A stretch of DNA of 64,000 nucleotides, from positions 192,001-256,000 of the forward strand of contig CAXXOU010000001.1 in the NCBI GenBank assembly GCA_963677495.2, written 5' to 3'. Below are positions 18,001-33,000 of the stretch, one piece after another. A program made the position numbers. Position 1 is the first letter of the stretch. The number at the start of each line of letters is the position of its first letter. Source of the DNA: Candidatus Cloacimonadales bacterium (GTDB taxonomy: Bacteria; Cloacimonadota; Cloacimonadia; Cloacimonadales; JAFGVF01).

Positions 18001-21000
18001 ATCAGTAATTTGATCTCTAATATCATGGGCAATCTCTTCTAGATATGCTCTTACCTCATCCTTATTGTATCCGGCAATCGACGTTTTAAATTCTTTGTAC
18101 TTAATATCTTCCGGTTTTAATGCCATAATTCCCCCATTAGAAGTAAAGTTGTCTGAATAATAATCTCTGAATAATACTAATTAGAAATAATGCAACGATT
18201 GGAGACAAATCAAATGTCCCTGTTCTCGGTAGCATCTGTCTGATTGGTTTCAATACAGGTTCGGTAGCTTTTATTAATAGCTGATAAAACTGATTATAAG
18301 GGTCATTCATTATCCAAGAGAATACTACACGAAGTAGTATTAACAGTTGGTAAATCTTTAATGCAAAGCTTAATAGTTCTATCATTAGTTCCTCAATCAA
18401 TAATCTCATGACAGTTGCGACATCTAGCTTCATAAAGTTCATCTGCCCCTACCAGAATCGTATAATGATCCTTAGTAAGTCTCTGAGTTCTGTTAGCTGG
18501 ATTACCACACTTCATGCAAATCGCAAGATTCTTGGTAATGTATTCAGCAATGGCCAAAAGCTGTGGCATAGGACCGAAAGGTTTGCCCATGTAGTCCTGG
18601 TCTAGACCGGCAACTATAACACGATACCCTTTATCTGCCAGATCATTGGCAACTTCAACTATAGAATCTGCAAAGAACTGAGCTTCATCAATTGCTATGA
18701 TCTCAGGTTCAGTATCAAGGTGTTGATAAATCTCTTCCGGAACTTCAATATTTATGCTGGGAGCAGACATCCTTGAATGCGAAACTATCTGATTATCAGA
18801 ATACCTATTATCTATTACTGGTTTGAAAACGAGAACCTTCTGTTTCGCATATTCAGCTCTTCTTATTCTACGGATAAGCTCTTCAGTTTTTCCTGAAAAC
18901 ATACTACCGCAAATCACTTCTATCCAACCCGTCTTCTGTGTAATAATGTTCATTAATTATATATCCTTAATCTACTTAAACCGCTATTTTCCTGCTTAAG
19001 CACAACACTTCTTTATAACTAATCATACTAACTAAAGCATCATTATTTTTGACAAGCACTTTTTCATTTTTTTTTGGAACACCTAATCATCATATTTCCC
19101 TTTTTTATAATTCATATACTTTATTGACTGAACGCGAAATTGCACCGAAACGAAGTATGGGTCGAGAGCTAACATGCTTTCAGGTTCAACAATTTGGACC
19201 TAAGCTGTCTTTCAGGTTCAGGTTTGTTAAATATCACTTCTCCCTTAGTCTCATACGTGTTTATCAGATCCGCATCCTCTTTTGCGATATTGCAAACTTT
19301 CAGTAGACTATCTATCAAAGCGCAGTCATCCCACTGTTTTCCCACTGTGCACGCACTGTGCACCCAGTGAAACAGTGGGTTCGCAGTGCCTTCACAGTGC
19401 GTGCACAGTGCAAACACAGTGCGTTGGTGGATAGAGCAGTAAAAGAGAGTAAAAAGGGCAATAAATATAGCTAAGTTATTGCAATAGGCACTGTGTGTGT
19501 CAATTTCGGACTTGCGTTGCAGCGATAGCGTGACGCGAGAACGAAATCAGGAACATGCGACTTCGGAGTGCATTTTAAGAAGTACGTTTTCCTTTCAGTC
19601 TGACAAACTCCCTGAAATGCAGTAAGTCATTGCTAAAGACACTGTCTGGAAATGCAAAAGAGCCCGACCTGATGGTAGGGCTCAAATGTATCTAAATGAT
19701 TAGATTATTTAACCATTATCATTTTTTGAGTTTCAGTTCTGTTTCCACTTGTCATTTTGTAGAAATAGATACCGCTAGTAGTCTGCTGACCATTGTTGTC
19801 TTCACCATTCCATACAATTGAATGTTCGCCGGCAGCTTTATGCTCGTTAACAAGAGTTTTAACAAGCTGGCCTTTAACATTGTATACGCTAACGTTAACG
19901 TTGCCATTAACAGGAGCATTGTATTTGATAGTTGTAGTTGGGTTGAATGGGTTAGGATAGTTACCCTGAAGCATAGCTTTTGAAGGAGCAACTTCAACAA
20001 CTTCGTTGTCAGTAGGGTTAACAGTAAAGTCAATAGCAGAAAGGACTAATTTACCAGGACCTGCTTGACCTTCAGCTTGAGTTGAACAACCCCAAACATC
20101 ATCATCATGGAAATAGAAGAATAAACGGTAAGTTTCGTTATTCTGATCATCTTCACCGAGGAAGAGAAGTTCTTCTGCTGGGTAAGCAAACATTGGAGTC
20201 ATACCATCCCAATCTGAGATATAAGCATGCTCAACACCAAAGCCCATGTCATTACCTGATTCATCTAACCAGAAATCGTCTTCAACTGAAACACCACTGA
20301 AAGCGATTGGTTGCTGCCATGTGCTACCATTATCAAGAGATAATGAGATATAGATTTCGTTAGAGTTTTCATAAGGCTGCCAGTATGATAAGTTATCAAC
20401 GTGGAAGTCATTTGCAGGAGTTGAATCATGCCATACCATAGCCATAACACCATTTTCATTAGCATTAGTAATCTTAGTATGTGCAAGATGGAAGAACATA
20501 GCATCATCATGTGAATCATGCTGATAGTGAGGGAAAGGCCAGATTGAATCTAAGCGGATGTTTCCATAACCTTCAACATCTGGAGTAACACCATCATCGA
20601 TACCATCATTAGCTCCGTCATCCCAATACTGGTCAACGTTACCATCATTATCCATATCCCAATGTACAAAGTGTCCGTCACCATTGCTCTTAGGGAATAC
20701 ATCAATAAGTTCCATTGTATTGTTAGCTACATCATAAACGATATCTTTAACAATGTGTAAACCATAGAAGTATGAACCTTCAGGAGTAACAAGACAGTAA
20801 GTAGCAGGCATATGAAGTTTGCCTTCTTCGTCCCAACCTAAAGTGAAGTGACCATTGTTTGTGATTGTGAATTCAAGACCATCATAAGGCGCATCACCAT
20901 TTTCAGTATCAACAAAGTAGTATGAACCATCAGCATTCTGAGGATTAGCAACCGGATAAGAAACGTCAAATGCATTCCAAGTCCAATCAGATGTTGGATT

Positions 21001-30000: not shown

Positions 30001-33000
30001 ATTTATGAATGTATCAGCAATAGTACCTGGATAAGTATAAGGTATACTTCCGGATGTATCCATACCTGTTAATGGATACTCATAAACCCACTCTTCATAT
30101 GATGGGAAACCGGCCATAATGTTACCGGTCTGTGCAATTGTGTCCCAACCTGCTCCAATATCACCGATAACGTAATTACTGAAAACATCATCTACATATG
30201 CATCAAGTGCTTCCTGATCTACAGTTCCATCAGCATTGTAAATATCAGAGTTATTTGTTGTTTGATAAATATATGAATCTCTATCTACACCTTTAGGTGC
30301 ATAATCTGTAGTTTTATTATAATAACTAGCTTTGATCTTAAGATTCATCTGTGGGTTGAATACTTGGTCAAAGTTAACAACATACTGTCTTTGGTTGACT
30401 TCACTCTGTCCATTATGCTGAAGTGCATATTGATCACCATGACTGTATGAATCGTTTACTTCTCTATCACCACGAACAGCTAAAGTAACTTTTGTTCTTG
30501 GTGTAATCTGATACTTGGTTTTAAAGTTCAGATTATAGCTATTATAATTTCTCTGACCTGTCTCTGTCCAAAGGAAATCTTCTCTGTTTTCATATGGATC
30601 ATATTCATCATAGTCATACTCTAAAAGAGGAGTGCCATTAAGGATGAAGTCATCGTTAGGATCACTTTTCCAGTTATCTTTAAATCTTCCATCAGTCCAT
30701 TGACCACTTCCATTTAAGAAGAAAGTAAGATTATTCCTTAATTTTCCAAATCCATAACCAAGAACCGGACCACCAATAGCAAAACGTAATAAATCAAAGT
30801 TACTGTTTTCATCTATAATAAGATGATCAGTTGAATACTCAATTTTACCACTATAATTTCTGCTACCACTTTTAGTAACAATTGAAACGATACCAGACTG
30901 TGCATTACCAAATTCAGCAGTAAAACCACCGGTCATAACATTCATATCTGCAATAGCATCTGTATCAACAGATAAAGCTGCACCACCGTCAACTGGGTCA
31001 GAAACTGACATACCGTCAACTGAGTAAACTACCTCACCGGTACGTCCACCACGAACACGTACACCATCTCCTGAAACTGAGATACCGGCAATGTTTCCAA
31101 GAATGTCAGAAACATCATCGACAGCCTGTTCACTAAGATTATCAACTTCGATTCTCTTTTGAGAACCAACCTGTTTTGTGTCCACTTTGTCTTTTACGGC
31201 TTTAATTGTTACACCTTCGATTTTCACGGATGATTTAACCAGTTTTGCATTCTGTGTACTAACAGAACCTGCGTTAATTCTAATTCCTTCGATTGTAACA
31301 GTGTGGAAACTCATTTTTGATACACGTGCATCATAAACACCCGGAGGGATGTTAATAATTTTACATGTACCGTTTTTCTTAGTCATTCCACCAATTTGGG
31401 TGATTGCACCATCTTTAAATAGAACTATGTTCACATAAGATAACGCTTCTCCATCCTCGGTCTTAACTTTAACAGCTAGGGTACCTGTTTCTTGTGCAAC
31501 CAAAGATAAACTTCCAAAAAGCAAAACAAAGAACAATATTGAAGCTATCTTTCGCATCAATTAATCCTCCCTTTCTATTTCACAATATCATTGTTTTCGT
31601 AAAATTATCCATTCTACCAAAAAACGAATGGAATAACTTAAATGTCAATAAATTTTCTGCAAGCACTTGTTTATTTACGGAAATTCCAGCTGTCTGTACC
31701 ATATTTACTCTCTGTTAATTCTTCCATTAGCTTTCTCTCATATTCACTGATTCCTGATTCAATTACGAATTCATCTGAACTCCATTGCTCCTGAAATCCT
31801 TGAACTAATTTTTCCGTTACTTCCTCGTAAGAATAATTGTTAATCTGTGCTTGATTAATCGAAATTGTCTTTCTCTGCAAGAATCTGGCCAACTTCTCTT
31901 TCTTCTCCGTTTCCAGTCCGGGTACTAACCATGCAACTTCTGCCTGGTTTTCATGAAGAAGGATTGAGCCATGTTGTAATAGCATATCTCCCTTTCGAAC
32001 TTGAGCACTCCCTACTATTTTCTTTCCAAGACACTTTAGTTCATATCTAGAAGTACTTGTAAAGCAGGGATTAGCATTCACTCTCTGCTCTGAAGCAGTA
32101 AGCTCACCTTTCTCAAATTCGATCGGTACACCAAGGTTCTTTAAACCTGTAGCTAATGCTTTACTGATCTCCGCGTAAGTATCAGTTATTCCTCCCTCAA
32201 ATTTCTCAATCGAAGGAGTTATAACAGCATACGTTACTTCGTTTTTGTGCAGAACAACTCTACCACCGGTTGGTCTTCGCACAAATCCATAACCCCGACT
32301 TTCCAGTTCACCGAGGTCAATCTCATCCAATGCTCTTTGGTTAAAACCGCACGACACTGTCGCCGGTTCCCAATCATAAAAACGTATTGTAGGTAAACTC
32401 TCCCCCGCCTCAATAGCCATCATGATTGCTTCATCAATAGCCATGTTTTCGGCTGAGTTAAATCTACCGTGGACTATAACTCTCCACTTCATATATTAAT
32501 CAATTTTACCTTTTCGGCATCTTTTTTCTTTTCTATAACACCTATTTTTTTCACAGGTAATTTTGCCATCATCTCATTTGCTACTGTTTCAGGACATACA
32601 ACTATGTAACCAACACCCATATTAAAAGCACTGTATGATTCATATGAATCAACCTTTCCTGCATCCACTAAAAGCTTGAACAGTTCAGGTGTTTCCCAAG
32701 TTGCAACATCAACTACTGCTGTTAGTCCATCAGGGATTACACGTTTAAGATTCCCAACGATACCGCCACCTGTGATATGCGCCATGCCATGTGTTTGTTC
32801 TGGTTCAAGGAAGTTCTTCAAATATGGAAGGTATGATTTGTGTATCTTTAGAAATGCTTCTGCAACTGTTTCATCCATTCCCGGTAAGAGTGAATCATGC
32901 TTAAGATTAAGAATATCAAAAGCAATAGCACGAGCTAAAGAATAGCCGTTTGTATGCAAACCGGTTGATTCAAAACCAAGCACTACATCACCTTCTTCAA

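What a model noticed while it worked through the whole genome (the two positions that open the first line are those of the whole stretch)
19705..31557. Type IX secretion without the GldLM motor and GldKN ring; a phylum-wide TonB/ExbBD-porV operon co-distributed with SprA [...]
The genome has the T9SS translocon SprA (uncalled as such, g00403, C1:499059-505220), PorU, five PorV/PorQ genes and 173 CTD cargo proteins, but no detectable GldL, GldM or GldN, and this holds across Cloacimonadota. An operon TonB-dependent barrel - exbB - exbD - exbD - tonB - unknown 1023-aa CTD protein (g00190) - porV is conserved phylum-wide and is present or absent together with sprA, making its ExbBD-TonB set the candidate energiser.
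Evidence so far: SprA profile TIGR04189 431 bits vs cut 200; cargo count. GldM, GldL, GldN profiles: no hit over cut-off here even at E<=1; GldK profile hits only FGE-sulfatase paralogues at <=87 bits vs cut 350. GldM 0 of 61 phylum genomes vs SprA 56 of 61; positive control GldM and GldL 5 of 5 Bacteroidota. g00190 in 54 of 61 at about 50-60% identity. Gene order barrel-to-porV kept in 14 of 14 genomes fetched, a CTD cargo follows porV in 10; in two genomes of the other order the operon lies about 13 kb from sprA. The 5 complete small genomes without SprA also lack g00190 and CTD cargos (0 of 5 over cut, call 221) and this ExbB type. Five genomes labelled Ignavibacteria, Zixibacteria, WOR-3, Effluviviaceae, [...]
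(Added by a program. Inside this text positions count along the whole contig: contig position 192,001 is position 1 of the stretch shown here. "Call 12" and the like, gene names such as g00115 and contig names such as C1 are that model's own, and its searches are not shown. The text may have been shortened before it was handed on; [...] marks where a part breaks off. The agent that wrote the report below was given it as the finding of a first reader that could run no searches.)

Follow-up and report, generated by a model that had tools for sequence, protein, structure and literature searches.

The report
Importer with secreted lid; motorless T9SS
This operon most likely encodes an undescribed nutrient importer whose surface partner is itself exported by type IX secretion, in a bacterial phylum that has the type IX pore and many cargo proteins but no detectable copy of the motor thought to be essential for it.

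Summary
The eight-gene operon is intact in 13 of 13 Cloacimonadota loci fetched. SprA is in 115 of 121 genomes; GldM, GldN and GldL reach cut-off in 0 of 121, with working positive controls for GldM and GldN.

The energiser reading is not the best one. The barrel is a plugged TonB-dependent transporter with a conserved TonB-box motif, so the adjacent ExbBD-TonB already has a client. The 1023-aa protein (g190) is a beta-supersandwich with a C-terminal export tail and has full-length relatives across FCB phyla. There, barrel–g190–PorV triads usually lack exbBD-tonB and recur several times per genome beside glycosidases, peptidases, LacI regulators and transporters. The operon's PorV is a g190-linked paralogue, not the general shuttle. 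Co-occurrence with sprA is expected if g190 is T9SS cargo. Four genomes have SprA, PorV and cargo without GldM, GldN or the module.

Best reading: a SusCD-like importer with a T9SS-exported, PorV-tethered partner (0.66). What powers this T9SS stays open. A Gld-less translocon across FCB outgroups conflicts with a 2025 model in which T9SS arose from gliding. New variant; interest 0.7.

The parts
28474..31557 (-). TonB-dependent transporter (signal peptide, carboxypeptidase-regulatory-like N-terminal extension, TonB-box-like motif at residues 114-121, plug, barrel); ORF tool starts one codon earlier at 31560
   Evidence: Pfam Plug, OMP_b-brl_3, CarboxypepD_reg; model pLDDT 77.7 matches PfeA/Cir/FhuA at E about 1e-24; motif V119 105/107, A121 100/107
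27623..28447 (-). ExbB
   Evidence: PF01618 92.8 bits; clade of Cloacimonadota copies is sister (96/79, weak) to the Bacteroidota exbB-exbD-exbD type
27215..27622 (-). ExbD 1
   Evidence: PF02472 93.8 bits
26799..27203 (-). ExbD 2
   Evidence: PF02472 63.9 bits
26145..26798 (-). TonB (one N-terminal membrane anchor, acidic linker, TonB_C)
   Evidence: PF03544 69.4 bits at residues 139-216; anchor read from the sequence
23055..26126 (-). g190, 1023 aa: signal peptide, galactose-mutarotase-like beta-supersandwich (33-570, with loop insertions), beta-rich middle region, atypical T9SS-like tail (about 897-1023); proposed surface partner ('lid') of the barrel
   Evidence: No Pfam; tail matches PorZ tail E 2.8e-5; model pLDDT 76.4, tail below 50; Z 17.4, rmsd 3.5, 255 aligned to 9ju0; 3262 representatives at E<=1e-3
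22015..23046 (-). PorV/PorQ-family barrel of the g190-linked group; proposed dedicated carrier and anchor of g190
   Evidence: NF033709 196 bits vs cut 90; groups with 38 other PorVs that follow a g190-family gene, apart from the canonical PorV clade
19705..21984 (-). Type A CTD cargo, 759 aa, passenger of no named family; two paralogues elsewhere in the genome
   Evidence: TIGR04183 46 bits; paralogues; homologues follow porV in related operons
14389..15780 (-). CTD-like protein with ExeM/NucH-type N-terminal similarity; homologue of a gene in the conserved core cluster of other phyla (outside the operon)
   Evidence: NF033681 E 4.7e-10, far below cut; E 1.7e-23 to L122:5242-7317
13537..14379 (-). 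Second PorV-family gene, directly after the 463-aa CTD-like gene (outside the operon)
   Evidence: NF033709 79.2 bits, just under cut 90
50359..52950 (-). Probable lipoprotein of the family that follows porV in the triad of other phyla (outside the operon)
   Evidence: E 2.5e-28 to a profile of 10 such proteins; lipobox-like motif after an internal Met

Best explanation
The operon is a TonB-dependent import unit that is a client of type IX secretion, not its engine. Steps: (1) g190 is exported through SprA by its atypical tail (inferred). (2) It stays on the surface bound to the co-encoded PorV paralogue (inferred, by analogy to type B cargo with cognate carriers). (3) Its beta-supersandwich captures polymer fragments over the barrel, doing the job SusD does in Bacteroidia (inferred). 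(4) The co-encoded ExbB-ExbD-ExbD-TonB pulls the barrel's TonB box and opens the plug (established TonB mechanism; motif and fold shown here). The window's copy belongs to an old, mostly one-per-genome clade without glycosidases. Its substrate is unknown; nucleic-acid fragments are my guess (about 0.25) from the ExeM/NucH-like partner gene. Separately, the T9SS of this phylum lacks the GldLM-GldKN energy chain, and its energy source is not identified by this operon.
For: Barrel has the TBDT fold, plug and a conserved TonB-box motif. g190 N-domain is a sugar-enzyme-type supersandwich. Of 93 g190-family genes in 76 outside loci, PorV follows in 45 of the 61 with a downstream gene; upstream of the 82 not at an edge are a barrel (42), PorV or g190 of a tandem (15), TonB (2) or other (23). 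exbBD-tonB is inserted in only 2 of 76 loci. In five genomes, 15 of 20 regions fetched are further barrel-g190 units, 14 with PorV next; 10 of these 15 have glycoside hydrolases or lyases, 2 amidases, 2 peptidases, 1 LacI plus PfkB (52 of 116 neighbour ORFs scanned). All 39 PorVs that follow a g190 gene form one group (SH-aLRT 88); the genome's C4:3102 groups (99) with canonical PorV. g190 family at E<=1e-24: 0 of 25 SprA-less and 59 of 67 SprA+/GldM- genomes, as expected of cargo. G221, G249, G257, G273 have SprA, PorV and 7-21 CTD matches but no GldM, no GldN over cut, no barrel orthologue and no g190 beyond one 5e-9 hit.
Against: No substrate, localisation or transport data exist. The window's barrel does not group with the glycosidase-linked paralogues but with a conserved clade (98) spanning several phyla, which looks more like housekeeping than nutrient-specific uptake. 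The family is absent from GldM-positive genomes (0 of 29 at E<=1e-24), which a motor-replacement model also predicts. The tail of g190 is a weak CTD match (E 2.8e-5) and was poorly modelled. PorV group support is only 88, from a quick tree. The four module-less genomes are drafts or near-complete, and one search scored at most 9 candidates per genome.
Confidence: 0.66

Rival explanations
1. One reading: this ExbB-ExbD-ExbD-TonB set energises the T9SS directly, with TonB pulling loaded PorV out of SprA (alone or besides serving the barrel).
For: No Gld motor in 121 genomes. Operon in 111 of 115 SprA+ and 0 of 6 SprA- genomes, a better match than the Agl/Glt-like ExbB (92 of 115). Energy is needed to extract carrier and cargo in F. 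johnsoniae (PMC10994853 passages). Five SprA+/GldM- genomes without a close ExbB homologue still have another ExbB and TonB.
Against: The set has an adjacent TonB-box client. Close ExbB homologues in 8 of 29 GldM+ genomes, none in 20 of 67 SprA+/GldM- genomes. No exbB/exbD/tonB in 20 sprA neighbourhoods. The loss is one genus. The operon's PorV is not the shuttle.
Confidence: 0.12
2. The conserved core complex (barrel, g190, PorV paralogue, lipoprotein) is an ancestral T9SS accessory: TonB pulls on the barrel, which relays force or clears carriers from SprA. Glycosidase-linked copies are later co-options, and Bacteroidia replaced it with GldKLMN and PorG.
For: Mostly one-per-genome clade across Calditrichota, Eisenbacteria, Zixibacteria, UBP14, Cloacimonadota and non-GldM Bacteroidota. 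Mutually exclusive with GldM (0 of 29) and dependent on SprA (0 of 25). SprA in 48 of 50 and GldM in 0 of 50 genomes picked for carrying g190. PorG is absent from its usual site in two GldM- genomes.
Against: Four genomes keep SprA, PorV and cargo without the module. Only 38 of 67 SprA+/GldM- genomes showed the full-length top-scoring type (limited scoring depth). The barrel is an ordinary plugged importer fold. No g190 beside sprA in 20 regions.
Confidence: 0.14
3. The phylum is not motorless: a GldL/GldM pair too diverged for profiles powers the T9SS, and the operon is unrelated to secretion energy.
For: Earlier unchecked notes of this scan describe very divergent GldLM-like pairs in Fidelibacterota, Ignavibacteria and Kapabacteria; these are leads only. 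Profiles are built from Bacteroidia.
Against: A topology scan that recovers 28 of 30 GldL and 30 of 30 GldM found 3 pairs in this genome, and a relaxed scan (30 of 30 GldL) found 19 pairs; none looked GldLM-like by eye. GldN and GldK are also missing.
Confidence: 0.08

Closest known systems
Type IX secretion system of Bacteroidota (SprA/Sov, PorV, PorU, GldLM motor, GldKN hub, PorG)
   Same: SprA over cut-off, a canonical-clade PorV (C4:3102), a PorU-like protein, about 180 CTD cargo proteins.
   Different: No GldL, GldM, GldN, true GldK or PorP/SprF over cut-off; PorG not found with a weak profile. A one-sentence prior note exists for Melioribacter and Ignavibacterium having only SprA, PorV and Plug (PMC11705866 passage); Cloacimonadota is listed as possibly having a T9SS (PMC11285876 passage).
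SusC/SusD (RagA/RagB) TonB-dependent importers and polysaccharide utilisation loci
   Same: Large TBDT with N-terminal extension, a large surface partner encoded next to it, paralogous copies beside glycosidases, LacI regulators and inner-membrane transporters.
   Different: The partner is not a SusD lipoprotein but a supersandwich protein with a T9SS-like tail and its own PorV-family barrel. The window's copy has no glycosidase in the operon. A TBDT followed by a CTD-bearing hypothetical protein appears unexplained in the R. marinus xylan locus table (PMC6987092 passages); I did not fetch those genes.
Type B CTD cargo with cognate PorP/SprF carriers (F. johnsoniae)
   Same: A cargo gene linked to a dedicated carrier barrel that would fix its final location (PMC12618676 abstract).
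   Different: The carrier is PorV-family, not PorP/SprF; the tail matches neither Pfam type A nor type B model.
Bacteroidota exbB-exbD-exbD-tonB energy-transducing complex
   Same: Same gene order and a sister ExbB clade (weak support).
   Different: Here inserted inside the barrel-g190-porV unit, which in my outside sample occurs in only 2 of 76 loci.

Membership tests
T9SS (Bacteroidota type) | SprA/Sov translocon | tested here: met
   TIGR04189 431 bits vs 200; 115 of 121 phylum genomes
T9SS (Bacteroidota type) | General PorV shuttle | tested here: met
   C4:3102 groups at 99 with canonical PorV of five genomes; equivalog score 166 is under the cut of 250
T9SS (Bacteroidota type) | CTD-bearing cargo | tested here: met
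   181 C-terminal matches by local profile; TIGR04183 on the window cargo
T9SS (Bacteroidota type) | PorU sortase | tested here: inconclusive
   C1:163644-168683 scores 251 vs cut 420
T9SS (Bacteroidota type) | GldL/GldM motor | tested here: not met
   0 of 121 over cut; six-frame --max profiles; topology scans; GldM control 29 of 121 Bacteroidota
T9SS (Bacteroidota type) | GldK/GldN ring | tested here: not met
   GldN 0 of 121, control 268 bits; GldK only FGE-type paralogues, this genome only
T9SS (Bacteroidota type) | PorG coupling barrel | tested here: inconclusive
   No hit at E<=1 with a two-sequence profile; weak test
T9SS (Bacteroidota type) | SprE/PorW, PorT, Plug, SkpA | not tested
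   No genome-wide search was run for these
T9SS (Bacteroidota type) | Demonstrated CTD-dependent secretion and its dependence on proton motive force | not testable with these tools
   Needs a cultured strain
TonB-dependent transporter | Plugged outer-membrane barrel | tested here: met
   Pfam Plug; Foldseek to PfeA, Cir, FhuA, E about 1e-24
TonB-dependent transporter | TonB box before the plug | tested here: met
   Conserved motif at residues 114-121 in 107 homologues; its likeness to known TonB boxes is recalled, not from a call
SusC/SusD pair | SusD-family lipoprotein partner | tested here: not met
   No SusD/RagB Pfam in any operon gene; g190 is a beta-supersandwich
Polysaccharide utilisation locus | Carbohydrate-active enzymes in the locus | tested here: not met
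   None among the operon genes; met in 10 of 15 paralogous loci of other genomes
Type B CTD / PorP-SprF pairs | PorP/SprF-family carrier and type B tail | tested here: not met
   TIGR03519 not over cut in this genome, 13 over cut in control G220; no CHU_C hit on g190

The most novel reading that the evidence does not exclude
The ancestral T9SS of the FCB group predates the GldLM/GldKN gliding machinery and is powered by TonB, either directly or through the conserved barrel-g190-PorV core complex, so that this operon is the original energy chain that Bacteroidia later replaced.
Probability: 0.22. Interest if true: 0.92.

Novelty: new variant of a known kind. Interest (0 to 1): 0.7.

Why it matters
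[quoted passage not shown] A whole outgroup phylum with SprA, PorV and about 180 cargo proteins per genome in this case, but no Gld genes, points to the opposite order and makes 'what extracts cargo from SprA' testable in a stripped-down system. Second, the barrel-g190-PorV triad would be a second way to build a SusCD-like importer, using a secreted and barrel-tethered partner instead of a lipoprotein. It would explain unannotated genes in polysaccharide loci of non-Bacteroidia FCB bacteria, which SusCD-based locus finders would miss.

Tried and rejected
Complex prediction of a barrel with the g190 supersandwich (smaller homologous pair from L046): no answer, score 0.00, neither support nor evidence against. 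Promoter and terminator scan: counts no higher than shuffles for promoters (49 vs 61) and uninformative. PDB sequence searches for g190 and the 463-aa protein found nothing useful. The g190 tail was modelled below pLDDT 50, so its fold was not compared. Atlas: g190 neighbours are unnamed clusters; cargo hits under 0.9. First search for related loci alignment was too diverse. I first took C4:4178 for PorU; it is an M6-like protein. Proximity of the operon to sprA in the other order was rejected as evidence: housekeeping-type genes intervene (names by eye) and strands differ. The Agl/Glt-like ExbB set was considered as energiser and ranks lower: missing in 23 of 115 SprA+ genomes with that query. 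Literature searches for the triad returned 0 papers; searches gave no paper naming a TonB-driven T9SS in the listings or passages I saw. The library lacks most subscription papers, and I read no supplements. T9GPred had none of my six terms. Earlier scan notes: nothing by sequence or in this genome.
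Full report
What is in the window. On the minus strand, 31557 to 19705, lie eight tightly packed genes (gaps 26, 0, 11, 0, 18, 8, 30 bp): a TonB-dependent barrel, exbB, two exbD, tonB, the 1023-aa g190, a PorV-family gene and a type A CTD protein. 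The order from barrel to porV is intact in 13 of 13 main loci that I picked across families. A CTD-labelled gene follows porV in 11, a homologue of the cargo in one more, none in one. Second g190 copies stand alone (3 of 4 fetched) or with their own PorV (1 of 4).

The T9SS without Gld genes is real. SprA scores 431 bits. In 121 phylum genomes at least 90% complete, SprA passes cut-off in 115; GldM, GldN and GldL in none. Controls: GldM passes in 29 of 121 genomes of a Bacteroidota sample, all of which have SprA; GldN scores 268 bits in G220. The curated GldL model was not run on a positive genome, but my own profile collected 30 GldL sequences from control loci. Profiles run without filters on all six frames of this genome found no GldL, GldM or GldN, and only FGE-type paralogues for GldK. 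Because earlier scan notes describe very divergent GldLM-like pairs in other FCB lineages (unchecked leads), I ran two topology scans. They recovered 28 of 30 and 30 of 30 control GldL and gave 3 and 19 candidate pairs here, none GldLM-like by eye. PorP/SprF is not over cut-off. PorG was not found with a weak two-sequence profile. The PorU-like protein is below cut-off.

The pattern extends beyond the phylum, with a caveat. SprA is in 48 of 50 and GldM in 0 of 50 genomes reached through g190 relatives (50 of the 76 loci were used). In the Bacteroidota sample, 67 of 96 SprA-positive genomes lack GldM over cut-off. Outside Cloacimonadota I tested only GldM, plus GldN in four genomes, so divergent motors are not excluded there.

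The barrel is an ordinary importer. Its model matches PfeA, Cir and FhuA, and a TonB-box-like motif is conserved before the plug in 107 homologues. The adjacent TonB therefore has a natural client. The genome has two more TBDTs and further ExbB sets.

g190 is the key gene. Residues 33-570 fold as a galactose-mutarotase-like beta-supersandwich (Z 17.4, rmsd 3.5, 255 aligned); a shared fold shows no function. The tail resembles a T9SS sorting domain weakly. The family is large (3262 representatives at E<=1e-3) and remote members align collinearly along the protein. In 76 named loci labelled Calditrichota, Eisenbacteria, Zixibacteria, Ignavibacteria, Gemmatimonadota, UBP14 and others (best 80 of 459 matches), the usual order is barrel, g190, PorV (counts). 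exbBD-tonB is inserted in two loci only. In five Bacteroidota-sample genomes I fetched 20 regions around hits. Five are a conserved cluster (g190, CTD protein, lipoprotein, barrel, PorV where the region reached it). Fifteen are further barrel-g190 units, 14 followed by PorV. Ten of the 15 have glycoside hydrolases or lyases, two amidases, two peptidases, one LacI with PfkB (52 of 116 neighbours scanned). A published table of the R. marinus xylan locus shows a TBDT, a CTD-bearing hypothetical, a hypothetical, another CTD protein and a GH10 (PMC6987092 passages), the same layout as L115; I did not fetch those genes.

The operon's PorV is not the shuttle. In a quick tree of 57 PorV-family rows (12 of the outside loci, lengths 270-450 aa), all 39 that follow a g190 gene form one group (SH-aLRT 88), while C4:3102 joins the canonical clade (99). 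This mirrors type B cargo with linked carriers (PMC12618676 abstract).

Testing the energiser idea. g190 is in 111 of 115 SprA-positive and 0 of 6 SprA-less genomes; the four misses are fragmented assemblies. The six are one small-genome genus, which also lacks CTD cargo (G002) and the Agl/Glt-like ExbB but keeps two other MotA/ExbB genes (four genomes). If g190 is cargo, co-loss needs no further cause. Close homologues of the window ExbB (E<=1e-38) occur in 8 of 29 GldM-positive genomes; 20 of 67 SprA+/GldM- genomes have nothing better than 1e-30. Five of those 20 still have another ExbB and TonB, so a TonB-type energiser cannot be excluded. None of 20 sprA neighbourhoods of up to 20 kb holds exbB, exbD, tonB or g190. 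G221, G249, G257 and G273 keep SprA, PorV and cargo with no GldM, no GldN over cut and no module. G188 also lacked a g190 hit but has a related barrel.

Results against my reading. In a quick tree of 42 barrels, the window's copy falls in a clade (98) of mostly one-per-genome copies from several phyla, apart from the glycosidase-linked ones. Two partners of that core cluster have homologues elsewhere in this window: an ExeM/NucH-like CTD protein (14389-15780) and a lipoprotein (50359-52950). The family is absent from GldM-positive genomes (0 of 29 at E<=1e-24). An old, conserved, Gld-exclusive envelope complex could be secretion machinery, so I keep that rival at 0.14 and the direct TonB model at 0.12. 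Replacement of this partner by SusD in Bacteroidia would give the same exclusion; that is inference and I did not test it.

What is known. Reviews list Cloacimonadota among phyla that may have a T9SS (PMC11285876 passage). A genome-wide model that includes the Gld genes found T9SS only in Bacteroidetes (PMC4793230 passages). One paper notes that Melioribacter and Ignavibacterium have SprA, PorV and Plug only (PMC11705866 passage). Energy is needed to release carrier and cargo from SprA (PMC10994853 passages). PMC12635249 (Discussion part 1 of 2) infers that the T9SS evolved as part of gliding. For M. roseus a starch locus was annotated as SusCDE (PMC3534657 passages). A 2026 review of glycoside transporters has no occurrence of 'T9SS' or 'type IX' (PMC13543919). 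PMC8542988, PMC6539836 and PMC10515386 were searched by term only and added little. Searches for the triad returned no paper, within a library that lacks most subscription journals; supplements were not read.

Verdict. The motorless T9SS is confirmed for Cloacimonadota and only briefly noted in print for other lineages. The operon is best read as an importer with a T9SS-exported, PorV-tethered partner and its own TonB motor. Export of g190, its tethering and its lid role are inferred, not shown. New variant of known kinds; interest 0.7.

Noticed in passing
G000:C3:7863-17967 (L157): Cluster of two large TPR-like proteins, exbB, two exbD-like genes and a 495-aa protein, resembling Agl/Glt-type motor loci (likeness recalled). 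Its ExbB is found in 92 of 121 phylum genomes.
   Followed up: partly
G000:C3:416118-428908 (L264): MotA/MotB-like pair with a FliG-like protein (TIGR00207 70 bits, below cut), an ATPase and a Wzc-like tyrosine kinase, next to a 1558-aa CTD-like protein and a PorV-like gene.
   Followed up: no
window 13537-15780; G000 C1:162631-168683, C1:678946-687186, C4:3102-7396: Several other PorV-family genes also sit directly beside a CTD-like gene (PorU-like, M6-like, subtilase, ExeM-like), suggesting many cargo-specific PorV carriers in place of PorP/SprF.
   Followed up: partly
window 16712-18953 and 32489-34415: Purine-nucleoside phosphorylase and thymidine kinase lie downstream, and a PfkB-family kinase and purM-like gene upstream, of the operon; with the ExeM/NucH-like protein this hints at nucleic-acid salvage but may be chance.
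   Followed up: no
window 31671-32492: A lipoate-ligase-like gene precedes the barrel here and in several loci of other phyla, a sign of old synteny.
   Followed up: partly
L008, L010, L013, L014, L015, L018, L019, L048: Tandem g190-PorV-g190-PorV arrays behind one barrel; in L008 the two PorV copies are identical proteins.
   Followed up: no
G002, G005, G008, G017, G023, G064: One genus of 1.5-1.6 Mb single-contig genomes lacks SprA, g190 and the Agl/Glt-like ExbB; a natural loss of the T9SS.
   Followed up: partly
window 23055-26126 and 22015-23046; outside barrels such as L028, L052: Acidic D-x-D-x-D-G repeats in loops of g190, its PorV and many outside barrels, possibly calcium-binding.
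   Followed up: no
L066:4665-7616; proteins P0127-P0159: Proteins with the g190 N-terminal domain fused to an ordinary type A CTD, so the domain is also used as normal cargo.
   Followed up: no
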